A stretch of 6,699 nt of DNA from IMG/VR virus record IMGVR_UViG_3300001522_000241; one strand, given 5' to 3'. Every line of letters begins with the position of its first letter. The first letter of the stretch is position 1. A model generated the notes under the pieces. It was not told the origin of the DNA. It ran no database searches and saw only the letters and a program-made list of their open reading frames with translations. Source of the DNA: a virus. This document shows positions 1 to 6,699 of the stretch, one piece after another. A program made the translations under genes and the position numbers.

Positions 1-31
1 CTGAGCCTGGGTCTCATCCCATACGGGTAAC
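1..31. repeat. Left copy of a 31-bp terminal direct repeat, identical to 6669-6699
   Basis: ctgagcctgggtctcatcccatacgggtaac occurs at 1-31 and again at 6669-6699 with no mismatch. This fits end overlap of a circular contig; att duplication is a less likely alternative. Confidence 0.95.
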
Positions 32-387: not shown

Positions 388-1410
388 TTAAGCGGCGTGC
401 AGTTGCGCCCAGGAAGTCACCGCTTGCGCCTCAATAATGCGCTTGCGGATCGGAACGACCTGACCTTTGGCCAGATCGGCATCACCCAGGCCAGCAGCCC
501 GGAGAATCTTCAAATTGCGGTACCAGGTCGGGCGACTCTGTAGTTCACGAGCGGCTTCCCATCCGCGCGATTGAATCAGCGCCCACAGCCCGAGGGCGGC
601 TTTAGCCTGCCCTTCCGTCTTAGCCACCTGAAAAACACGTTCCTTGAGTTCGTCTTCGCCAGTCATATCCGCATCTCCAATCATTCGCTCGAAGTAGCTG
701 CTCCACTCAGCCTTCAATTCATCGGGTTTTAACGTTAGCCAGTCATGGCGCTCGAACCATGCGCGGCCGAGCTTCAATTCCAGGCGCAAGAGGCGGTTAG
801 CATCCGCGATCTCTTGCGCCGTGTAGTTGCACCCGGTGTAGTCGGGCTTTTTCATCATGTAAGTCAGGTGAGGCCCCTTCGCGTAAGCCTTGCCAGCACG
901 GTGCTTTGATCGGTGAGACCAGTAGACGGTATCGCCAGCCTGCTGGCTGACCCGGTACCGGCCACCCTCGCACTCACGCAAAATCGAAAGCGCCTGCCGC
1001 ACCTCTGCCAGACTCGAAAGCGCCAGGTTCTCGGTCACGTCGATGCGAGACAAAATCCAGGCTTCCGGGCCGGGCAGATCGGTGCCCAGGTAGGCAGCCA
1101 CCCACCTGATCATGTGATCGGCGCAGCCGCGCAGATCGAGCGCGGCAGACGCCCCGGCACCGAACACGGCGTCACCTCTGCCGATGACCCTGGCGGGTGA
1201 CCCCTGAATCCAGAGTTCGGCCCCGCCGGCTTTCAACGCGATCTGGTGAGAATCGCTCCGGATGCTGTCCCAAGCAGCGGACGTCCAGCGTTCATCACCT
1301 GTCTGGGGGCAGTAGCGGGTGATCCGGTCGCCAATGGTCAGGCACACGGCCCTGGCGTGATCGCTGAGCTTCTCGTACGGCACCCGGATGGTGACCCAGT
1401 CGATCATCAT
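388..1410 (-). CDS. gII: Rolling-circle replication initiation protein, Ff gene II / phage CRI family
   Basis: 340 aa. N-terminus MMIDWVTIRVPY matches gIIp MIDMLVLRLPF. Other blocks also resemble M13 gIIp: IQGSPARVIGRGDAVFG vs IKASPAKVLQGHNVFG, SRIDVTENL vs SRIDATF, TVYWSHRSKHRAGKAYAK vs TVTWNETSRHRTLVAYLK, and LLRLELKL vs LVRFEARI. A GGGGGTGA Shine-Dalgarno-like run lies upstream. The start overlaps the upstream stop as ATGA. Confidence 0.9.
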   Translation of the reverse strand: MMIDWVTIRVPYEKLSDHARAVCLTIGDRITRYCPQTGDERWTSAAWDSIRSDSHQIALKAGGAELWIQGSPARVIGRGDAVFGAGASAALDLRGCADHMIRWVAAYLGTDLPGPEAWILSRIDVTENLALSSLAEVRQALSILRECEGGRYRVSQQAGDTVYWSHRSKHRAGKAYAKGPHLTYMMKKPDYTGCNYTAQEIADANRLLRLELKLGRAWFERHDWLTLKPDELKAEWSSYFERMIGDADMTGEDELKERVFQVAKTEGQAKAALGLWALIQSRGWEAARELQSRPTWYRNLKILRAAGLGDADLAKGQVVPIRKRIIEAQAVTSWAQLHAA

Positions 1411-1847
1411 TCGCGGTCACCCCCTGGACAGTCGGAAGTACTGTCCAAACGGTCGGCGAAAGTCTCACTCATGAGACAAAGGGGCGGTGTTACAAGGACC
1501 GCCCCTTGCCGATCGTCCCGATCAGCAGAAGAAAAAGCCCCGGTGGGAGACTCGGGGGAAGACACCGGGGTGGGGAACAAATCGAGTTGCTGCTCGACCT
1601 GGTGCGAGCTGCTGGGCCGTGAAAGGCGTTGTTCAGGGCGGGGATTCCCGTTCGGTGCCGCAGCGGGGCGCCGGGCTGCCCGGAATCGCGCCAACGTGCG
1701 CTGAGAGGCCGTCTGGGGGCCGTGCGGGTCCCAGTGGGACCGGGGGCGAGGTAACGGCCGTGAAACGTCTGTGCGCTGTTCAGCCGCGTTCTGCGGCCTG
1801 TCATCGCCTACGGCGATAGGGTGCGGGATCGGATCGCGGCGCTTCAT
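1407..1847 (-). CDS. Hypothetical Pro/Arg/Ser-rich protein, predicted largely disordered, function unknown
   Basis: 146-aa ORF. AGGAG lies 8 nt upstream of the ATG. There are ATGA start/stop overlaps with both the upstream ORF (1844-1847) and gII (1407-1410). Third codon positions are mostly G/C when read by eye. No recognisable domain, and long ORFs arise easily in GC-rich DNA. Confidence 0.45.
   Translation of the reverse strand: MKRRDPIPHPIAVGDDRPQNAAEQRTDVSRPLPRPRSHWDPHGPQTASQRTLARFRAARRPAAAPNGNPRPEQRLSRPSSSHQVEQQLDLFPTPVSSPESPTGAFSSADRDDRQGAVLVTPPLCLMSETFADRLDSTSDCPGGDRE
1462..1507 (-). other. Tandem stem-loops embedded in the 146-aa ORF, 55-100 nt upstream of the gII start
   Basis: Perfect 10-bp inverted repeat aaggggcggt (1479-1488) / accgcccctt (1498-1507) with a 9-nt loop. 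An adjacent 6-bp hairpin is gtctca (1462-1467) / tgagac (1472-1477) with a 4-nt loop. Read on the minus strand, each is followed by TTT. Confidence 0.6.
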
Positions 1848-2242
1848 GAGCGGCGCTCCTGCTGCCGGCGAGGCCGGGCAGGCTCACGCCCTACCCTACG
1901 GCCTGCGGCCCGAATGCCATCCGACGCCAGCGCGTGTAGAAAATCGGGGTCATGGCTGAAACGCTGAGGCCGGCGAGGCGCGGCCATGTGGCCGAGGCCG
2001 CAGGAGGCCAATACCAACTCGACGCTTTCGGAGGGAGAACACAACATCTTGTGCGCCGGCGGAACGCCTTGTGCACAAGATATGGGGTTTGCGGCGGCGA
2101 GCTTGGCGCGGCGGCGCTCGATCCAGGCGACGACGTGGCCGTCGTGGAGAGCGTAGCCCTGGTGTTCCAGGCCAAGCCAGTAAACGCCGGACTCAGCTGG
2201 CGGCGCGAAGGGGGACATGTAGGGCGAGAGCTTGACGATCAT
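1844..2242 (-). CDS. Hypothetical protein, 132 aa from the MIVKL start, function unknown
   Basis: I prefer the internal ATG at 2242 to the track start at 2281. AGGGAG lies about 8 nt upstream and this ATG overlaps the upstream stop as ATGA (2239-2242). The first ~55 codons show strong C/G third-position bias. The bias weakens around the repeat element at 2041-2091. Confidence 0.5.
   Translation of the reverse strand: MIVKLSPYMSPFAPPAESGVYWLGLEHQGYALHDGHVVAWIERRRAKLAAANPISCAQGVPPAHKMLCSPSESVELVLASCGLGHMAAPRRPQRFSHDPDFLHALASDGIRAAGRRVGREPARPRRQQERRS
2041..2091. repeat. Copy A of a 51-nt repeated element, inside the 132-aa ORF
   Basis: Ungapped alignment of 2041-2091 with 3313-3363 gives 39/51 identities. 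Conserved blocks are GTGCGCC, AACGCC, CAAGATATGGG and TTTG. It contains a 9-bp inverted repeat atcttgtgc (2046-2054) / gcacaagat (2073-2081) and the palindrome ttgtgcacaa (2069-2078). Confidence 0.7.
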
Positions 2243-2427
2243 GGACGCAGCTCCCTTCGGAGATCCCACAAAGCAATCCAACCGATGAGCACACGGGTCT
2301 GATAATCAAAGAACAACGGACATGGCGAGGCAGTGGAATCAGTGATAGCGCGGTCTTCGCACTGGACGCACAGATCCCCGAGTTCGGCGGGCTCATCGCA
2401 AAGGCGGCAGCGTTCGGTCATCCCCAT
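2239..2427 (-). CDS. Small zinc-ribbon-like protein (CxxC-x9-CxxC), first gene of the leftward operon
   Basis: 62-aa ORF. The start may instead be the third codon, ATG at 2421, which has AAGGGG 6 nt upstream. Motif is CRLC-x9-CVQC near the N-terminus. The stop overlaps the next start as ATGA. Confidence 0.5.
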   Translation of the reverse strand: MGMTERCRLCDEPAELGDLCVQCEDRAITDSTASPCPLFFDYQTRVLIGWIALWDLRRELRP

Positions 2428-2465: not shown

Positions 2466-2495
2466 GATATAGCACTAAAGGGGTATAGGCATCAA
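2466..2495 (-). promoter_or_regulatory. Candidate sigma70-type leftward promoter (TTGATG-18-TATATC)
   Basis: Minus-strand TTGATG (plus 2490-2495) and TATATC (plus 2466-2471) are separated by 18 nt. AGGGGT motifs lie in the spacer, next to the -35 and downstream. Read by eye only. Confidence 0.3.
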
Positions 2496-2559: not shown

Positions 2560-2955
2560 ATGAAAAAGACCCTGGATTACATCGACCAGCTGGCGGCGTT
2601 GAAAGGCTGGGAAACCGACTACCAGATAGCGAAAGGCCTAGGAATCAAGACGCCGACGATGACGAGATACCGTCGCCATGGCGGAACGCTGGACAATGAC
2701 ACGGCGTGGAAAGTGGCTGAAGGCTTGGGGATTGACGCAATGGAGATCATCGCGGCGGCTGAGATCGAGCGCGCGGAACGCGCAGATAACACGGAGAAGG
2801 CGGCCGTGTGGAAGCGCCGATTTCAAGCGGTAAGCCATTCTGCTGCAACGATTCTCGGAATTATTGCACTGCCCTATGGCATCTGGCTGGCGGATCGACT
2901 CTGTATATTATGTTCAATAGAGGATCGGCCCGCGTTAAAGCGTCAAGTAGCATGA
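2560..2955 (+). CDS. HTH (Cro/CI/XRE-like) transcriptional regulator, candidate phage repressor, with a hydrophobic C-terminal segment
   Basis: 131 aa with a strong AGGAGG RBS 8 nt upstream. It has an N-terminal helix-turn-helix-like segment DYQIAKGLGIKTPTMTRYRRHG and lies divergent to the replication operon. The C-terminal stretch AATILGIIALPYGIWLA is hydrophobic. Confidence 0.75.
   Translation: MKKTLDYIDQLAALKGWETDYQIAKGLGIKTPTMTRYRRHGGTLDNDTAWKVAEGLGIDAMEIIAAAEIERAERADNTEKAAVWKRRFQAVSHSAATILGIIALPYGIWLADRLCILCSIEDRPALKRQVA
2891..2918 (+). other. dif-like Xer recombination site (candidate attP): degenerate XerC arm, TGTATA central region, 10/11 XerD arm
   Basis: 2902-2918 TGTATA-TTATGTTCAAT matches the canonical dif central region plus XerD arm TGTATA-TTATGTTAAAT at 16/17. 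The 11 nt in the XerC-arm position (2891-2901, cggatcgactc) match GGTGCGCATAA at 2/11. The site sits in a local AT-rich patch. Confidence 0.6.
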
Positions 2956-2978: not shown

Positions 2979-3305
2979 ATGGACTTCAGAACAGCGGCCT
3001 TCGGGCTGCACCCCCGCCAAATCGCCGACCTGATCGGCGTCCACATCAGCACCGCACGGAAATACCTCAGATCTAACCAGGCACCGGCCTGGGCGTTCCA
3101 ACTCCTAACCATCCATCGACACGGCCGACTGCCGACAGACTGCCCGACCTGGTCACACTGGCGAATATCCGGAAGCTTTCTAATCGACCCGGCCGGCGTC
3201 GAATACAGCGCCGGCGACGTAATGAGCCTTTGGATCGTTGAGCAGCTGAAAGTGGAGCTGGAACGAAAGCACCGCGCCCCGGTTCAGTACCTCCTCGACG
3301 TTTAA
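2979..3305 (+). CDS. Small HTH-containing phage regulatory protein, function unknown
   Basis: 108 aa with GGGAG 7 nt upstream of the ATG. It has an N-terminal HTH-like segment PRQIADLIGVHISTARKYL, and a Trp-rich centre WSHWRISGSFLIDPAGVEY. It follows the repressor-like gene on the same strand. Confidence 0.65.
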   Translation: MDFRTAAFGLHPRQIADLIGVHISTARKYLRSNQAPAWAFQLLTIHRHGRLPTDCPTWSHWRISGSFLIDPAGVEYSAGDVMSLWIVEQLKVELERKHRAPVQYLLDV

Positions 3306-3312
3306 ACCAAAC

Positions 3313-3363
3313 ACAAGATGTGGTGCGCCAGGTTAACGCCAGGCGCGCAAGATATGGGATTTG
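3313..3363. repeat. Copy B of the 51-nt repeated element, in the convergent intergenic region
   Basis: 39/51 identical to 2041-2091. It carries two direct CAAGAT-type motifs, acacaagat (3311-3319) and gcgcaagat (3345-3353). It also has direct cgccagg repeats flanking a gttaac palindrome. Confidence 0.7.
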
Positions 3364-3387
3364 GACAGCCGCGGGGAACGGCTAACA

Positions 3388-3428
3388 GCGGGCGGGGGTG
3401 CGTCGTTCCTCCGCCTCCCCTCGCCCGC
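3388..3428. terminator. GC-rich imperfect hairpin between convergent genes; possible bidirectional terminator or ssDNA structural signal
   Basis: gcgggcggggg (3388-3398) pairs with cccctcgcccgc (3417-3428), giving 11 bp with one bulged T and an 18-nt loop. There is no clear T-tract on either side, so terminator function is uncertain. Confidence 0.3.
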
Positions 3429-3430
3429 CG

Positions 3431-4438
3431 CTAGCCGTCATCGCCGGATGACCGAGAAGGGGATTCATCGGGGGGACGCGATGGCGCCGGATCGGCGCTG
3501 GCGAGGTGGTTGAAAACGCCGTCGGCCAGGGCGCGCTTGCACATCGACAGCGACATATCCCGAATGCGGGTGCCCTGCTGGGTGTAGCAGCGGCAGTCGG
3601 ACTGATTCGGCCGAAAGGCCATGCATCCGGAAACGACCGGCACCGCCTGGACGTTCATAGCGGCCTCGCGGTAGATCGGGGCGGTGTAGGGAACGCCGGA
3701 GACGGCAGGAGTCAGCAGCTCGGCCCAGGAACCGGGTGACTGTGTGGGCATTGTGCCTGGCGCCATGGGTACGCCCTGCTCGACCGTCTGTTTTGCAGCG
3801 TCGGGATCTACGCCGCCAATGCTGAAACTGCTAAAGAACCACCACCACGCACCCGCAGCCGTGAGGACCAGGGCGCCCAGGATGTACAGCATCTTGGGCG
3901 GGTTAAACTTATGGGTATGGACCTCGGCGGAGTGATACAGGCCGAACGCCGCTTTAGGGAGCGGCTTGCGCTTCTGCGAGCAGCGGGCCAGATCGGCGCG
4001 GTTGCTCGGTGAGATGGCGCCGGTACCGCAGTGATACTCGGTGATCATCGGCGCTTGGAACGGGCGCACGTAGTGAAAGTGTTCGTTTGCGATCTTGCGG
4101 GCGTGGCTGTCCAGCAAGCCGGGCTCCTGCGTAATAAAAAACACGTCATAGCCGTAATGACGGTGCGTTTCGAGCGCGGTTAAACCATCGGGTACCGGGC
4201 GACTGGAAGGACGTACCGGGAACAGCTGCTGCGCTTCGTCGATAATAACGACTGCGCCCTCAGGAACGTTCTGACGCCAGTCCTTCGCTTGATCATCGGT
4301 CAACTCGAACCAGCCGAGGTCTGGGCTCAAATCCCGGATACCCCTGTAAAACACAGGGCGATTCTTTACGTCCTTAAAGCGGAGCAACGTGCTGGACGTC
4401 TTGCCGGCGCCCGGTGTTCCGGTGACCAGGGCGAACAT
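3431..4438 (-). CDS. gI: Zot / gene I-like assembly ATPase
   Basis: 335 aa. Walker A is GTPGAGKTS at residues 7-15 and Walker B-like VVIIDEAQ follows. A central transmembrane segment MLYILGALVLTAAGAWWWFF precedes a C-terminal domain. The start overlaps the gVI stop (TAATG). It is in the canonical position after gVI. Confidence 0.9.
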   Translation of the reverse strand: MFALVTGTPGAGKTSSTLLRFKDVKNRPVFYRGIRDLSPDLGWFELTDDQAKDWRQNVPEGAVVIIDEAQQLFPVRPSSRPVPDGLTALETHRHYGYDVFFITQEPGLLDSHARKIANEHFHYVRPFQAPMITEYHCGTGAISPSNRADLARCSQKRKPLPKAAFGLYHSAEVHTHKFNPPKMLYILGALVLTAAGAWWWFFSSFSIGGVDPDAAKQTVEQGVPMAPGTMPTQSPGSWAELLTPAVSGVPYTAPIYREAAMNVQAVPVVSGCMAFRPNQSDCRCYTQQGTRIRDMSLSMCKRALADGVFNHLASADPAPSRPPDESPSRSSGDDG

Positions 4439-4749
4439 TATTCAGCGCCCTGCCCGGCCATGAACGACAGGCGCTTGAAACCGCTGGCAACCATGATCCA
4501 GGCCAGCAGACCAAGGTGGGCGGATATCACCAGACTGATGAACACATCGACACCGGCGATACTGGCCAGGGCTAGAACATCGGAGGCGGCGCCGAAGTGC
4601 TGGCTGACCAGGTTAACCAGCTGGTCGCCAAGTTCGACGACGCCGGTATAAGCGACGACGCCCATACCAAGGGAGACCAGCACACGGCCAACCATGCCGC
4701 TGATCGCGCCGAACAGCCAAACACCGAGGGTTTGCAGGAAAGCGGGCAT
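4438..4749 (-). CDS. gVI: gVI-like minor coat / membrane protein
   Basis: 103 aa, very hydrophobic with several predicted membrane helices. It lies between the gIII analogue and gI, with 1-nt overlaps at both ends (TGATG, TAATG). Assigned mainly from position and composition. Confidence 0.7.
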   Translation of the reverse strand: MPAFLQTLGVWLFGAISGMVGRVLVSLGMGVVAYTGVVELGDQLVNLVSQHFGAASDVLALASIAGVDVFISLVISAHLGLLAWIMVASGFKRLSFMAGQGAE

Positions 4750-6152
4750 CAGTCAGATCCTCCGGAGAATTTGCGCAGGATGATCAGCGCGGACATGAGG
4801 TAGCCGAGGGCGATAACGATCGGCCGGACCATCGCGGCCCAGTCGCAGATCGGCTCCCAGGACAGGGTAAAAGAGCCTCCGAAGGCTCCTGGCATCGAGA
4901 AAGTGCGATCAGCCGGGCACGCGAGATTGCCGAAGCTGATGGTGTCCTCTGAAAGACCGGCGACGACAGTGCCGGCATCGAGAGTGGCGGAGGGGATCGC
5001 GTTATCAGGCTGGCCGTCACCGTCGCCGTCCTCGCTGCTGGTGATCGAGGGGCCTTCGAGATATTCCTCATCGCCGACGAAATCCCGATGCTCGGTTGTG
5101 GCGTCACAACGGACGTGGAAAAGCTCGATCGCGAGAGCGCACTGGATGGCGTCCATATTGTCGGAGCACTCCGGCTCCACGCGCTCGCCGGGTTCGCAGG
5201 TACCGCCATCGTGATAGCCGTCGCCGGGTTCGTTGCCGTCACCCTCGCCGTCGTCTATGCCACCGGGCTCACCGTCGGGAATGCCGTTGCCGTCGCCGTC
5301 TTGCTCACCGTCCGGAGTGCCGTCGCCATCGGCGTCGGGATCATCAGGATTGGGGTCATCGGCGTTAGGAATACCGTCGCCATCGCTGTCGGCGCTGCCG
5401 TCGCTATCAGACGGTTCCTCATAATTGGGGTCATCCTGACCGCAGTACCAGTCACCGGTAGAACCACCGGCCTCATTACAACTTTCATCTGTTTCTGGTG
5501 CACGACAATAGGTCTGACCATTAGGAGCAGTAACGCTGTTTGGACAGCCGCCGCCACCACCGGGACAGTACCGACCATCGAACCCCTGATAACAACCATC
5601 CTCATCCGTATATTCGTCCCACGGTTCCGAAGGCTCAGCACCGTCAGACTCATCGCAGTAAACACCGGTGCTGGTGGCGTCGTAGAAATACCGCCGCACG
5701 CCGTTAACCTGAATCCAAGGCACTGAACCGGAGGAGCTCGTGGTCATTACGCAATTGGAATAACAGGCATCCGAACCAAGCGGAGAGGAGGAAACGACCT
5801 GCTGAGTCTCTCCGGCGGGAATCGGGCATTCAGTGATGGGACCGAAACACAAATAACCGCCAGGATTTGCGGGATCAGGTCCTAGACGAGGAAACGACGA
5901 TGACGAGCAATAAACCGCCCTATACTGCGTATTGCCGTTAGAATCAGTAAATGGATCGCAAACACCGCTATGATACGATGATAAAAACGCCCCACAATCC
6001 TCCTGATAATAAAATTGTTTAGTTAATGGAGCGACGCCCTCAGCGGCCGAAACAAACGACGCTAACGAACAGAGAGCAAGCCCCACAACGAGACCAGCAC
6101 AACGAAGAAGTAAAGCCACGGACCAAAATCCCCTTCCATAATCACCTCCCAT
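4749..6152 (-). CDS. gIII: gIII-like adsorption / minor coat protein with a Cys-rich N-domain, acidic repeat linker and C-terminal anchor
   Basis: I prefer the start at the ATG at 6152 (MGGDYGRGFWSVALLL), which has GGGAG 6 nt upstream. The track start at 6266 would run through the terminator and gVIII. It has a signal-peptide-like N-terminus ending VSA/AEG, many Cys in the first ~280 mature residues, and a D/G/P-rich tract. The C-terminal hydrophobic anchor is IVIALGYLMSALIIL followed by RK. Confidence 0.75.
   Translation of the reverse strand: MGGDYGRGFWSVALLLRCAGLVVGLALCSLASFVSAAEGVAPLTKQFYYQEDCGAFLSSYHSGVCDPFTDSNGNTQYRAVYCSSSSFPRLGPDPANPGGYLCFGPITECPIPAGETQQVVSSSPLGSDACYSNCVMTTSSSGSVPWIQVNGVRRYFYDATSTGVYCDESDGAEPSEPWDEYTDEDGCYQGFDGRYCPGGGGGCPNSVTAPNGQTYCRAPETDESCNEAGGSTGDWYCGQDDPNYEEPSDSDGSADSDGDGIPNADDPNPDDPDADGDGTPDGEQDGDGNGIPDGEPGGIDDGEGDGNEPGDGYHDGGTCEPGERVEPECSDNMDAIQCALAIELFHVRCDATTEHRDFVGDEEYLEGPSITSSEDGDGDGQPDNAIPSATLDAGTVVAGLSEDTISFGNLACPADRTFSMPGAFGGSFTLSWEPICDWAAMVRPIVIALGYLMSALIILRKFSGGSD
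5205..5432 (-). repeat. Asp/Gly/Pro-rich tract encoding tandem DxDxDGxxDxxD-type (thrombospondin type 3-like) repeats
   Basis: The translated tract includes DSDGDGIPNADD, DADGDGTPDGEQD and DGDGNGIPDGE (core at 5268-5390). A fourth copy, DGDGDGQPDNA, is encoded at 4995-5030. The biased composition also creates long spurious ORFs on both strands here. Confidence 0.6.
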
Positions 6153-6185
6153 TTTTATCTCCCAAAGACCGGTAGTCGCTCGGAG

Positions 6186-6210
6186 ATAAAAATGGCCCCC
6201 GAAGGGGCCA
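6186..6210 (-). terminator. Rho-independent terminator downstream of the major coat gene
   Basis: On the minus strand the stem is TGGCCCC-TTCG-GGGGCCA (7 bp with a UUCG-type tetraloop, plus 6193-6210). ATTTTTAT follows immediately. It starts 7 nt after the gVIII stop and lies upstream of the gIII RBS, the classic inovirus arrangement. Confidence 0.85.
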
Positions 6211-6216
6211 CCCTGA

Positions 6217-6348
6217 TTAACGTCCCAGCATGCTCTTGACTTGCCGGAACGCCCAGATGCCTGCAATCACAGTCACCACAGCCAGACCAATCGGAGACAG
6301 GTCGGTGAGTGCACCGGTGATCGCAGTATCAACGCCGGTAAAATCCAT
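6217..6348 (-). CDS. gVIII: Major coat protein, 43 aa with no signal peptide (gVIII analogue, Pf3-like organisation)
   Basis: Absent from the ORF track because it is short; I translated it by hand as MDFTGVDTAITGALTDLSPIGLAVVTVIAGIWAFRQVKSMLGR. It has an acidic N-terminus, a hydrophobic core and a basic C-terminus (R, K, R). GGAG lies 7 nt upstream and a strong terminator follows directly. Confidence 0.8.
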   Translation of the reverse strand: MDFTGVDTAITGALTDLSPIGLAVVTVIAGIWAFRQVKSMLGR

Positions 6349-6668: not shown

Positions 6669-6699
6669 CTGAGCCTGGGTCTCATCCCATACGGGTAAC
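6669..6699. repeat. Right copy of the 31-bp terminal direct repeat, identical to 1-31
   Basis: Exact 31/31 identity with 1-31. Confidence 0.95.

What the first reader, a model, noticed from the sequence alone, without database searches (positions are those of the whole stretch)
1407..2427. About 1 kb (15% of the genome) of three ATGA-coupled genes of unknown function feeding into gII
Four consecutive minus-strand ORFs are chained by ATGA start/stop overlaps at 2239-2242, 1844-1847 and 1407-1410. They are a CxxC-x9-CxxC zinc-ribbon protein, a 132-aa protein, a 146-aa Pro/Arg-rich low-complexity protein, and gII. Three exact overlaps in a row are unlikely by chance. Two of the starts also have good AGGAG/AGGGAG sites.

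I recognise none of the three as a canonical inovirus gene, and they sit where some inoviruses carry regulatory or accessory cargo. They could be replication accessory factors, a switch component opposite the repressor, or host-modulating proteins. The disordered protein is the least certain as a real gene.
Basis: partly seen in the sequence, partly recalled or inferred. Interest (0 to 1): 0.65.

Follow-up and report, generated by a model that had tools for sequence, protein, structure and literature searches.

The report
Replication-operon leader that overlaps the phage origin
The three chained small genes in front of the replication gene of this marine filamentous phage are real, but the last third of the third gene is really the phage's probable replication origin, a two-hairpin DNA element conserved across dozens of related phages and always read through by a gene ending at the replication gene's start.

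Summary
Four minus-strand ORFs (A 2421/2427..2239, B 2242..1844, C 1847..1407, gII 1410..388) are joined by ATGA overlaps, each with a purine-rich Shine-Dalgarno (SD)-like site about 9 nt upstream.

- **ORF C.** Its 3' ~130 nt (about 1410-1545) hold a structured DNA element: hairpin 1 with an invariant GTAAC loop, then hairpin 2. It occurs once per genome, 34-180 nt upstream of gII, in all but one of about 50 Phage_CRI-type relatives. 9 of 14 stem pairs covary. It resembles the two-hairpin core of the M13 (+) origin, so it is most likely the pII nick and binding site.
- **A conserved reading frame.** An ORF reading through the element and stopping at the gII start is kept in 39 of 42 relatives, even where its protein is unrelated.
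- **C, the "least certain" gene, is the most widely conserved.** It is disordered apart from one helix (residues 39-70, dN/dS 0-0.14).
- **B** is a genuine gene (dN/dS 0.20) from a small orphan family found just upstream of rep genes of two unrelated families. One relative has lost it.
- **A's zinc ribbon** is fused to the C-like protein in relatives.

No function could be assigned to A, B or C.

The parts
2466..2495 (-). Candidate early promoter of the A-B-C-gII operon: -35 TTGATG at 2495-2490, an 18-nt spacer, and -10 TATATC at 2471-2466. It lies in the 132-nt divergent region facing the repressor gene.
   Evidence: Read by eye. The consensus scan did not report it. This is inference only.
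2239..2427 (-). ORF A, a small 4-Cys zinc-ribbon protein (CRLC-x9-CVQC). The likely start is the second ATG at 2421, giving 60 aa. The stop overlaps the B start in ATGA.
   Evidence: Homologues keep MTERCRLCDEPAELxDLCxxCEDRAITDFTASPCPLFFD and vary in the tail. Pfam gives only sub-threshold zinc-finger hits. Found only in L001 and L004 among the 25 viral relatives.
1844..2242 (-). ORF B, 132 aa, a portable accessory gene of a small orphan inovirus family.
   Evidence: dN/dS 0.20 against L001, with differences 5/5/21 by codon position. There are 6 close homologues and about 20 clusters at profile level. Homologues lie immediately upstream of Rep_trans or Phage_CRI rep genes. Deleted in L004. AlphaFold pLDDT 73 and pTM 0.30, with no fold match.
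1407..1847 (-). ORF C, 146 aa, a mostly disordered Pro/Arg-rich protein that reads through the origin element and stops in ATGA at the gII start.
   Evidence: AlphaFold pLDDT 60, with a single helix at residues 47-58.
1804..1818 (-). Small hairpin ATCGCC-GTA-GGCGAT inside the 5' part of C, followed by the conserved block GACAGGCCGCAG. Its role is unknown.
   Evidence: Relatives show compensatory stem variants: ATGCCC/GGGCAT, ATGGCC/GGCCAT and CCGGCC/GGCCGG.
1638..1733 (-). The conserved peptide core of C, residues 39-70 (WDPHGPQTASQRTLARFRAARRPAAAPNGNPR). This is the only part of C under clear protein-level selection.
   Evidence: dN/dS 0-0.14 and variable columns 5/3/18 by codon position. Invariant residues are A47, R50, L52, R54 and F55. 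Predicted helix at 47-58.
1575..1589 (-). QLDLF (C residues 87-91), which matches the bacterial sliding-clamp-binding consensus QL[SD]LF. This is a lead only.
   Evidence: The column reads ELQ(L/G/R/A)(D/Y)(L/F)(F/V) in alignment A4. It is absent from the L005 subclade. The consensus is recalled from memory and binding was not tested.
1508..1570 (-). Two further hairpins 5' of the origin core. One is CCCCGGTG/CACCGGGG (1570-1538) followed by a T-rich run. The other is GCTGATCGG/CGATCGGC (1526-1508). They are candidates for part of the origin region; a (-)-origin role is possible.
   Evidence: I13. The terminator-like score is no better than chance.
1479..1507 (-). Origin hairpin 1: stem AAGGGGCGGT / ACCGCCCCTT with the 9-nt loop CCTTGTAAC (1497-1489). 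The stretch GTAACAC is invariant. This is the probable pII nick site.
   Evidence: I8. Covariance-model hit at 1450-1509, 74.7 bits. The layout matches M13 hairpin A1 (PMC11765958).
1462..1477 (-). Origin hairpin 2: GTCTCA-TGAG-TGAGAC. This is the probable pII-binding hairpin. Several relatives repeat it as extra half-copies.
   Evidence: 5 of its 6 pairs change on both sides. Extra copies occur in L002, L003, L004, L042 and L057.
1425..1447 (-). Hairpin 3, TGGACAGT / ACTGTCCA, lying next to the gII Shine-Dalgarno-like GGGGG.
   Evidence: I14. A GGACAGT-type hairpin is also present in the L005 and L010 clades.
388..1410 (-). gII, the replication initiator that the chain feeds into.
   Evidence: Pfam Phage_CRI at E 5e-18 and phrog_702 at E 8e-38.

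Best explanation
The 1-kb stretch is the 5' leader part of the replication (early) operon of a temperate marine inovirus. The phage carries a repressor, a dif-like attP and a XafT-like gene.

**Proposed mechanism**
1. Transcription starts in the divergent region opposite the repressor and yields one mRNA: A-B-C-gII-gV (inferred).
2. Ribosomes are handed from A to B to C to gII through the ATGA stop/start overlaps (inferred from anatomy and conservation).
3. The last ~130 nt of C are first of all DNA information. They form the (+)-strand origin core, a nick-site hairpin with an invariant GTAAC loop followed by an initiator-binding hairpin, built like the A1/A2 hairpins of the Ff origin. The conservation and covariation are shown. 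The origin function is inferred.
4. Because the origin lies only 34-180 nt from gII, with no evident promoter between them, the gII message must cross it. Selection therefore keeps some ORF open through the origin to the gII start. What is selected there is the act of translation, meaning coupling and reinitiation, rather than the peptide.

**The three products**
- C also makes a real product: a disordered protein with one conserved basic helix (TASQRxLxRF).
- In relatives C is fused to a zinc ribbon like A's, so A and C probably act together as a replication or regulatory accessory factor.
- B is a separate, dispensable, horizontally moving gene. Its family sits directly in front of rep genes of two unrelated families, which points to a rep-linked role.
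For: **The origin element**
- It occurs once per genome and is always on the gII strand. It lies 34-116 nt upstream of gII in 23 of 25 IMG/VR relatives; the other two loci begin at gII and hold no upstream DNA. It is also present in all but one of the 24 genome loci, at up to about 180 nt.
- 96.4% of stem cells pair. 9 of 14 pairs change on both sides. 0 of 500 shuffles reach this, and slid controls pair at 37-55%.
- As single-stranded DNA the region folds with a z-score of -5.6.
- The covariance model hits no Rep_trans-type inovirus and not M13.
- Extra half-copies resembling iterons occur in L002, L003, L004, L042 and L057. Tandem duplications occur in L032 and L042.
- M13 has the same layout: agtccac-gttctttaata-gtggact with the nick in the loop, then tgttcca-aac-tggaaca, upstream of gII (PMC11765958). 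The initiator belongs to the same Pfam family.
- It is not attP. A dif-like site lies elsewhere, and integrated prophages keep the element intact and internal.

**The read-through ORF**
- The V-T-P frame stays open to within 12 nt of the gII start in 39 of 42 distinct loci. It is open for a median of 122 codons upstream, against 27 for the other possible frame.
- This holds although the upstream proteins are unrelated: C-like, B-like (P0013) or others.
- The L004 deletion keeps the chain in frame.
- Many relatives have no SD before gII.

**Coding status**
-.
- Zinc ribbon fused to the C-like region.
- B upstream of rep genes.
Against: - The nick site has not been mapped, and origin function is untested.
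- The public runs are held as contigs only. The contig break at hairpin 1 is a palindrome-driven assembly artefact and is not evidence of a nick.
- RNA folding does not show the gII start region to be less accessible than those of other genes: 0.30 against 0.22-0.46. A need for ribosomes to melt the hairpins is therefore not demonstrated.
- In the window gII has its own SD-like GGGGG.
- L032 (Thalassospira xianhensis) carries a 56-nt origin duplication that breaks the read-through frame. In L042 and L014 only a short stretch of that frame is open upstream of the element. Coupling is therefore not obligatory.
- The stop-free distance required is short (12-35 codons), and the relatives are not phylogenetically independent.
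- The promoter is a by-eye guess.
- No function is established for A, B or C.
Confidence: 0.6

Rival explanations
1. The conserved hairpins act at the RNA level. They would form a translational operator in the gII mRNA leader, bound by pV, by pII or by the zinc-ribbon protein. The last case would resemble phage Mu Com opening the mom start site. On this view they are not the DNA origin.
For: - The element directly precedes the gII start. In L039, L044, L045 and L050, hairpin 2 ends 4-6 nt before the start codon.
- A roughly 60-aa 4-Cys protein heads the operon. Zinc ribbons recur upstream of gII in 20 of 44 loci, against 0 on the antisense control.
- Covariation alone cannot tell RNA from single-stranded DNA.
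Against: - Iteron-like extra half-copies and tandem duplications fit an initiator site better.
- The layout and position match the M13 (+) origin.
- The loop sequence is invariant across pII proteins that are only about 46-50% identical, including the many loci that lack a zinc ribbon.
- A has no match to any Com family or other named zinc-finger family above threshold.
- The two roles are not mutually exclusive.
Confidence: 0.15
2. A, B and C are three independent trans-acting accessory or cargo proteins, and the whole 1 kb is ordinary coding sequence with no cis-acting role.
For: - All three show some sign of coding.
- B moves between phage lineages like cargo.
- The region between the switch and the C core is swapped in L002 and L003.
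Against: - The 3' third of C has dN/dS about 0.8-1.2 and a flat codon-position pattern, yet its nucleotide sequence is among the best conserved of all.
- The same nucleotides are conserved in other frames or outside long ORFs.
- Stem covariation.
Confidence: 0.1
3. ORF C is not a gene. The whole of 1407-1847 would be the non-coding intergenic region of the phage (packaging signal, (-) origin, (+) origin), and it is open only because of its 69-71% GC content.
For: - Several hairpins are present, and single-stranded DNA folding gives z = -5.6.
- Most of C has dN/dS 0.3-4.9 with flat codon positions.
- Other frames are also open in this GC-rich stretch.
- There is a compensated 1-nt plus 2-nt frame shift between clades.
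Against: - Residues 39-70 show 18 of 26 variable columns at third positions and dN/dS 0-0.14 in four comparisons.
- The frame stays open for more than 100 codons in relatives of only 46-55% GC.
- In-frame fusion to a zinc ribbon under purifying selection.
- An SD and an ATGA junction are kept.
Confidence: 0.08
4. The conserved element is the attachment site or the packaging signal.
For: It is a conserved structured DNA element in a single-stranded DNA phage.
Against: - A 16/17 dif-like site lies at 2902-2918, next to a XafT-like gene.
- Integrated relatives in contigs of 92 kb to 1 Mb keep the element intact inside the prophage.
- The element tracks the initiator family and is absent from the Rep_trans inoviruses whose lysogeny modules, or other genes, are related to those of the window.
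- A longer hairpin at 3363-3453 is a better packaging-signal candidate.
Confidence: 0.03

Closest known systems
Core (+)-strand origin of Ff phages (M13/f1 hairpins A1 and A2, also called D and E) with gene II protein
   Same: - Two adjacent hairpins on the viral strand upstream of gII.
- The first hairpin has a 9-11-nt loop that runs from pyrimidine-rich to A-rich. In M13 this is TTCTTT/AATA, which holds the nick. Here it is CCTTGTAAC.
- The second is a 6-7-bp hairpin with a 3-4-nt loop, starting 2-3 nt later.
- The initiator belongs to the same Pfam family, Phage_CRI.
   Different: - There is no alignable sequence identity, and the covariance model does not hit M13.
- The element lies inside a translated ORF, 34-180 nt from gII. 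In M13 it lies about 225 nt upstream, in a ~500-nt non-coding region that has its own gII promoter in between.
- No A/T-rich enhancer is evident in the window.
- Nicking is unproven.
CTX-phi / TLC-phi type temperate inoviruses (IMEX): rstR divergent from the rep gene, with a dif-like attP and XafT
   Same: - A repressor gene is transcribed divergently from the replication operon.
- A dif-like site lies between the repressor and a XafT-like gene (PMC6744903, PMC12715192).
- The initiator is of the Cri/pII type, as in TLC-phi (my own knowledge).
   Different: - Here about 1 kb of three chained ORFs lies between the switch and the rep gene.
- The XafT match is below the NCBIfam cut-off (32.8 bits against 70).
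phiX174 gene A, a rolling-circle origin embedded in a translated gene
   Same: An origin nick site lies inside coding sequence, so the same nucleotides serve both protein coding and replication (my own knowledge).
   Different: - In phiX174 the origin sits in the initiator's own gene.
- The initiator belongs to a different superfamily.
- Here the overlapping ORF is an upstream leader whose peptide is not conserved over the origin.
Phage Mu Com, a 62-aa zinc-finger translational activator of mom
   Same: A roughly 60-aa 4-Cys protein is encoded upstream in the same operon as a gene whose start lies next to RNA hairpins (a resemblance recalled from memory).
   Different: - There is no sequence or family match.
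- A is 1 kb from gII rather than adjacent.
- RNA binding is untested.
- Many relatives with the same hairpins lack a zinc ribbon.

Membership tests
Ff-type inovirus (+)-strand origin (pII nick and binding site) | A cognate initiator of the gene II / Phage_CRI family is encoded next to it | tested here: met
   gII at 388..1410 matches PF05144 at E 5e-18 and phrog_702 at E 8e-38. The element tracks this family and is absent from Rep_trans inoviruses.
Ff-type inovirus (+)-strand origin (pII nick and binding site) | Two adjacent hairpins on the viral (coding) strand upstream of gII | tested here: met
   Hairpins at 1507-1479 and 1477-1462. 96.4% of cells pair, 9 of 14 pairs covary, and 0 of 500 shuffles reach this. 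M13 has the same layout.
Ff-type inovirus (+)-strand origin (pII nick and binding site) | Repeated initiator-binding sequences | tested here: inconclusive
   Extra half-copies (right arm plus hairpin 2) lie downstream in L002, L003, L004, L042 and L057. In the window only the arms of hairpin 2 and a degenerate stretch are seen.
Ff-type inovirus (+)-strand origin (pII nick and binding site) | Site-specific nicking by pII in the loop, and origin activity in vivo | not testable with these tools
   The public runs are held as contigs, so read ends could not be used.
Named zinc-finger or zinc-ribbon families (Pfam/NCBIfam, including Mu Com, Ogr/Delta, TraR/DksA) | A profile match above the curated threshold | tested here: not met
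   Only zf-Tbcl_FmdE (16.4 bits against a cut-off of 23.2) and DZR_2 (14.6 against 27). No hit in NCBIfam or PHROGs. PDB profile E-values are 1.4 or worse.
Generic 4-Cys zinc ribbon | Two CxxC knuckles separated by a short spacer and conserved in homologues | tested here: met
   CRLC-x9-CVQC, with all four Cys invariant in 7 homologues. Metal binding was not tested.
Bacterial sliding-clamp-binding proteins | A QL[SD]LF-type pentapeptide in a disordered region, conserved among homologues | tested here: inconclusive
   QLDLF at C residues 87-91, in a low-pLDDT region. Homologues read QGDLF, QLYLF, QRDFV or QADFV. The motif is absent from the L005 subclade. The surrounding segment has dN/dS 0.33-0.86.
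Bacterial sliding-clamp-binding proteins | Physical binding to DnaN | not testable with these tools
   No interaction assay or complex prediction was available.
Any described protein family or fold, for ORF B | A sequence-profile or structural match | tested here: not met
   No hit in Pfam, PHROGs, NCBIfam or PADLOC. None in the PDB profile search. Foldseek best E is 6.7 against PDB and 3.0 against BFVD.
Translationally coupled operon (stop/start overlap) | An overlapping stop and start codon conserved in relatives | tested here: met
   ATGA at all three junctions in the window and in L001. The C/gII ATGA is kept in L002-L004. Overlaps of 1, 4, 7, 8 or 11 nt, or gaps of up to 12 nt, occur in 39 of 42 loci.
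Translationally coupled operon (stop/start overlap) | Downstream translation depends on upstream translation | not testable with these tools
   The folding proxy gave no distinction. A reporter assay is needed.

The most novel reading that the evidence does not exclude
The origin-spanning leader ORF would be a translation/replication switch found across a whole clade of marine inoviruses.
- pII could be made only when ribosomes run across the origin hairpins on the mRNA.
- The protein made on the way would be a new kind of inovirus replication accessory factor. It is a disordered polypeptide with a conserved basic helix, a QLDLF clamp-binding-like motif and a zinc ribbon (fused in relatives, separate here). 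It would tether the host replisome, for example the beta clamp, to the nicked origin.
- B would be a second, portable rep-associated factor that works with two unrelated initiator families.
Probability: 0.12. Interest if true: 0.7.

Novelty: new variant of a known kind. Interest (0 to 1): 0.45.

Why it matters
- **A testable origin for an uncultivated group.** Origins of replication are mapped for very few inoviruses. This work gives a precise candidate of about 50 nt, with a covariance model, for a widespread group. Its hosts include Thalassospira, Zhongshania, Halopseudomonas, Chromatiaceae and Methylococcaceae.
- **A caution for annotation.** An "unknown disordered protein" gene can be mainly a cis-acting DNA element overlapped by a leader ORF.
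- **If coupling is real.** It would show how a temperate inovirus places initiator synthesis under a single repressor-controlled promoter while the origin lies inside the message.
- **New families to study.** B, C and the recurrent zinc ribbon are rep-linked protein families with no known function. Isolates exist in which relatives could be studied: T. tepidiphila MCCC 1A03514 and T. xianhensis MCCC 1A02616.

Tried and rejected
- **INPHARED phage searches.** Megablast, blastn and tblastn found nothing for the genome, for the region or for gII. The lineage has no deposited relative.
- **Rfam.** Only two chance-level hits, neither in the region.
- **Family and fold searches.** Pfam, PHROGs, NCBIfam and PADLOC gave no family for A, B or C. 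The PDB sequence profiles (A and B) and Foldseek on the B model gave no match either.
- **Promoter and terminator scan.** It found no more sites than shuffled sequence. The terminator-like hairpin at 1553-1535 is not significant.
- **Hidden gII start region.** RNA folding showed no difference from other genes. I keep coupling as an inference from conservation only.
- **Read-end mapping of the nick.** This was impossible because all runs are kept as contigs. The contig break at 1477-1506 in the source run is a palindrome artefact.
- **RNA evidence.** One metatranscriptome contig covers 1859-2029 in B with one mismatch. Single-stranded phage DNA can carry over into RNA libraries, so I do not count it as proof of transcription.
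- **Alternative-frame ORF.** The 104-aa ORF at 1490..1804 is not conserved in L003. The third-position changes of C would be non-synonymous in it.
- **attP hypothesis for the hairpins.** Rejected.
- **A and C as two halves of one ancestral gene.** The fusion in relatives is shown. However, the zinc ribbons are too divergent to prove homology, so I claim only functional linkage.


Full report
**What the window is.** The window is a complete circular inovirus genome. Its first and last 31 nt are identical, and contigs in three runs close the circle, so the true length is 6668 nt.
- On the minus strand lie A, B, C, gII (Pfam Phage_CRI, E 5e-18) and gV. Across the junction follow a 67-aa ORF, gVIII, gIII, gVI and gI/Zot.
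- On the plus strand lie a repressor-like helix-turn-helix gene (2560..2955) and a 108-aa gene (2979..3305).
- The source run is a hydrothermal-vent metagenome, and near-identical sequence occurs in many marine metagenomes.
- Nothing similar is in the deposited phage collection.

**Check of the observation.** The four ORFs and the three ATGA overlaps are exactly where stated.
- A has CxxC-x9-CxxC.
- Each start has a purine-rich site about 9 nt upstream.
- Homologues show that A starts at the second ATG (2421) and B at the ATG at 2242.
- The junctions are conserved in relatives.
- In L004 a 335-nt deletion with CAGC microhomology removes B. It fuses B's first 16 codons in frame to C, so the chain to gII is not interrupted.

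**Relatives.** A gII-based scan gave 25 viral contigs with 49-99% pII identity. It also gave 25 loci in bacterial genomes: Thalassospira at 68%, then Zhongshania, Haliea, Porticoccus, Halopseudomonas, Methylococcaceae, Chromatiaceae and others. A tblastn search with all window proteins against the viral contigs gave these results:
- C-like sequence lies directly upstream of gII in L001-L012.
- A occurs only in L001 and L004.
- B occurs only in L001.

**The main finding: an origin-like DNA element inside the 3' end of C.** The ORFs upstream of gII in otherwise unrelated relatives all end with the same peptide-like string, AV(L/P)VTPPLC(L/P)M. In L019 and L024 the same nucleotides are read in another frame. 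The nucleotide element has three parts.
- Hairpin 1 is GGGGCGGT-CCTTGTAAC-ACCGCCCC (window 1507-1479, minus strand), with GTAACAC invariant.
- Hairpin 2 follows after 3 nt: GTCTCA-TGAG-TGAGAC (1477-1462).
- A third hairpin lies at 1447-1425.

The evidence that this is a structured, initiator-linked element is as follows.
- On 16 distinct sequences, 96.4% of cells pair and 9 of 14 pairs change on both sides. 0 of 500 shuffles reach this, and slid controls pair at only 37-55%.
- The region folds as single-stranded DNA with z = -5.6.
- A covariance model finds one strong copy upstream of gII in essentially every Phage_CRI-type locus. The exceptions are L049, and L018 and L020, which begin at gII and hold no upstream DNA. 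The model finds none in the Rep_trans-type inoviruses and none in M13.
- Several genomes carry extra downstream half-copies (right arm plus hairpin 2), like iterons. L032 and L042 carry tandem duplications of the core.

**Comparison with the M13 origin.** The M13 origin, read from the record, has the same build. It reads agtccac-gttctttaata-gtggact, then tgttcca-aac-tggaaca two nucleotides later, upstream of gII. The pII nick lies in the first loop (PMC11765958). I therefore take 1462-1507 to be the core (+) origin, with the nick probably in the CCTTGTAAC loop. This is an inference, because no nick was mapped. It is not the attachment site. A 16/17 dif-like site lies at 2902-2918, and integrated prophages keep the element intact and internal.

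**Is C still a gene?** Yes, in part.
- Over the whole ORF, dN/dS is 0.35-0.72 with flat codon positions. Synonymous divergence is lower than in the neighbouring genes.
- Split into segments, residues 39-70 (WDPHGPQTASQRTLARFRAARRPAAAPNGNPR) have dN/dS 0-0.14 in four comparisons, and 18 of 26 variable columns are third positions.
- The other segments, including the origin part, give dN/dS about 0.3 to 4.9 with flat positions.
- AlphaFold predicts disorder except for one helix at residues 47-58.
- The C family has 14 unnamed members. A47, R50, L52, R54 and F55 are invariant.
- In the Thalassospira-type clade the C-like region is the C-terminal part of a longer ORF that begins with a 4-Cys zinc ribbon. 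That ribbon is under purifying selection, with dN/dS 0.14-0.22.
- A 4-Cys motif occurs upstream of gII on the sense strand in 20 of 44 loci and in none of the antisense controls.

A and C are therefore probably functionally linked.

**A conserved property independent of the peptide.** Because GTAAC is invariant, one frame is always closed.
- Of the other two, the V-T-P frame is open down to within 12 nt of the gII start in 39 of 42 distinct loci.
- It is open for a median of 122 codons upstream, against 27 for the alternative frame.
- The upstream proteins are unrelated between clades: C-like, B-like in P0013, or others.
- Many relatives have no SD before gII.

This pattern fits selection for translation through the origin and reinitiation at gII. 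The caveats are these.
- The stop-free distance needed is short.
- The lineages are related to one another.
- L032's origin duplication breaks the frame.
- Predicted accessibility of the gII start is not unusual.

**ORF B.**
- Against L001, dN/dS is 0.20, with differences 5/5/21 by codon position.
- The family is small: 6 close homologues and about 20 clusters at profile level.
- It has a conserved N-terminus, MxV(K/R)LSPYNSPFxP..PGVYWLGLE..HDAHV, and a C-terminal DG(I/V)xAAxRR.
- Homologues lie immediately upstream of, and often ATGA-coupled to, rep genes of two unrelated families: Rep_trans in L027-L030 and L060, and Phage_CRI in L057.
- The AlphaFold model is of moderate quality (pLDDT 73, pTM 0.30) and has no structural neighbour.

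B is a real, portable and dispensable gene associated with rep genes. Its function is unknown.

**Mechanism proposed.**
1. An early promoter opposite the repressor drives A-B-C-gII. This is inferred, and the promoter is weak by eye.
2. The ATGA junctions pass ribosomes down the chain and across the origin hairpins to gII.
3. pII then nicks hairpin 1 on the replicative form.
4. A and C (zinc ribbon plus disordered helix protein) and B are trans-acting accessory factors of unknown role.

A QLDLF motif in C (residues 87-91) matches the sliding-clamp-binding consensus as I recall it. However, it is only partly conserved, so it remains a lead and is not a finding.

**Comparison with what is known, and verdict.** The element works like the Ff (+) origin and meets its structural and contextual criteria. 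Nicking could not be tested. Embedding of the origin in a translated leader ORF next to gII is a variant I did not find described. The lysogeny module (repressor, dif-like site, XafT-like gene) is of a known type (PMC6744903, PMC12715192). Overall this is a new variant of a known kind, of moderate interest.

Noticed in passing
window 2902-2918 (+), and 2979-3305 (+): TGTATATTATGTTCAAT matches the dif central region plus XerD arm at 16 of 17 positions, with 0 of 200 shuffles doing as well. It lies inside the 3' end of the repressor-like gene. The next gene (108 aa) matches the VC1465/XafT Xer-activation-factor family (E 6e-8, below the cut-off) and DUF3653. The phage is therefore probably an IMEX that integrates at dif, as in the repressor-attP-XafT module described in PMC12715192 and PMC6744903.
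   Followed up: partly
window 1-31 and 6669-6699: A 31-nt terminal redundancy. Contigs in three runs close the circle, so the genome is 6668 nt.
   Followed up: yes
window 3363-3453: A long imperfect hairpin (36-nt arms, 72% complementary) lies between the convergent ends of gI and the XafT-like gene. It also produced a chance-level Rfam miRNA hit. It is a candidate packaging signal or bidirectional terminator.
   Followed up: no
window 1790-1818 (-): A 15-nt hairpin, ATCGCC-GTA-GGCGAT, is followed by the conserved block GACAGGCCGCAG, inside the 5' part of C. Relatives keep the pairing with different stems (ATGCCC/GGGCAT, ATGGCC/GGCCAT, CCGGCC/GGCCGG), while the encoded residues change (IAVGD, MPEGH, MAAGH). 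In the L005 clade the 5' arm holds an in-frame ATG, at which the L010 ORF starts. Its role is unknown.
   Followed up: partly
L032 3850-3965 (Thalassospira xianhensis contig); L042 3805-3983: L032 has a 56-nt tandem duplication of origin hairpins 1 and 2 that shifts the read-through frame. L042 has a 16-nt duplication that starts exactly at GTAAC, plus two further half-copies (iterons).
   Followed up: partly
L050 3434-8000; L045 1997-5948: Tandem units of about 2.5 kb, each carrying gII, the origin element and a few small ORFs, in Chromatiaceae and gammaproteobacterial MAG contigs. They may be arrays of a minimal, satellite-like element.
   Followed up: partly
window 1459-1506 (run X1): The source metagenome holds a second, related phage: a 6317-nt contig at depth 10.6, against 32.4 for the window's phage. 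It shares the origin hairpin sequence but has a divergent gII.
   Followed up: no
window 1859-2029: A marine metatranscriptome contig (181 nt, one mismatch) covers part of ORF B. A transcriptome of a coded isolate ('organism A') holds contigs of a relative that are about 85-99% similar, including one spanning the B/C junction (1567-2173). Carry-over of phage single-stranded DNA cannot be excluded.
   Followed up: partly
L027 5567-6004; L002 2814-2972: The variable region between the switch and the rep gene is mosaic. A two-helix membrane protein with a GDDR...RPKPK tail like the N-terminus of C precedes B in the Rep_trans phages, and a similar membrane segment occurs in L002. L003 and P0044 swap other modules in directly after the shared MGMT/MTER start.
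   Followed up: no
window 4749-6266 (-): The C-terminal ~75 residues of gIII resemble the Neisseria TspB family at a marginal level (E 6e-4). The middle of the protein is a long Asp/Gly/Pro-rich low-complexity tract that differs strongly between close relatives (58-60% identity where neighbouring genes are 97-100%).
   Followed up: no
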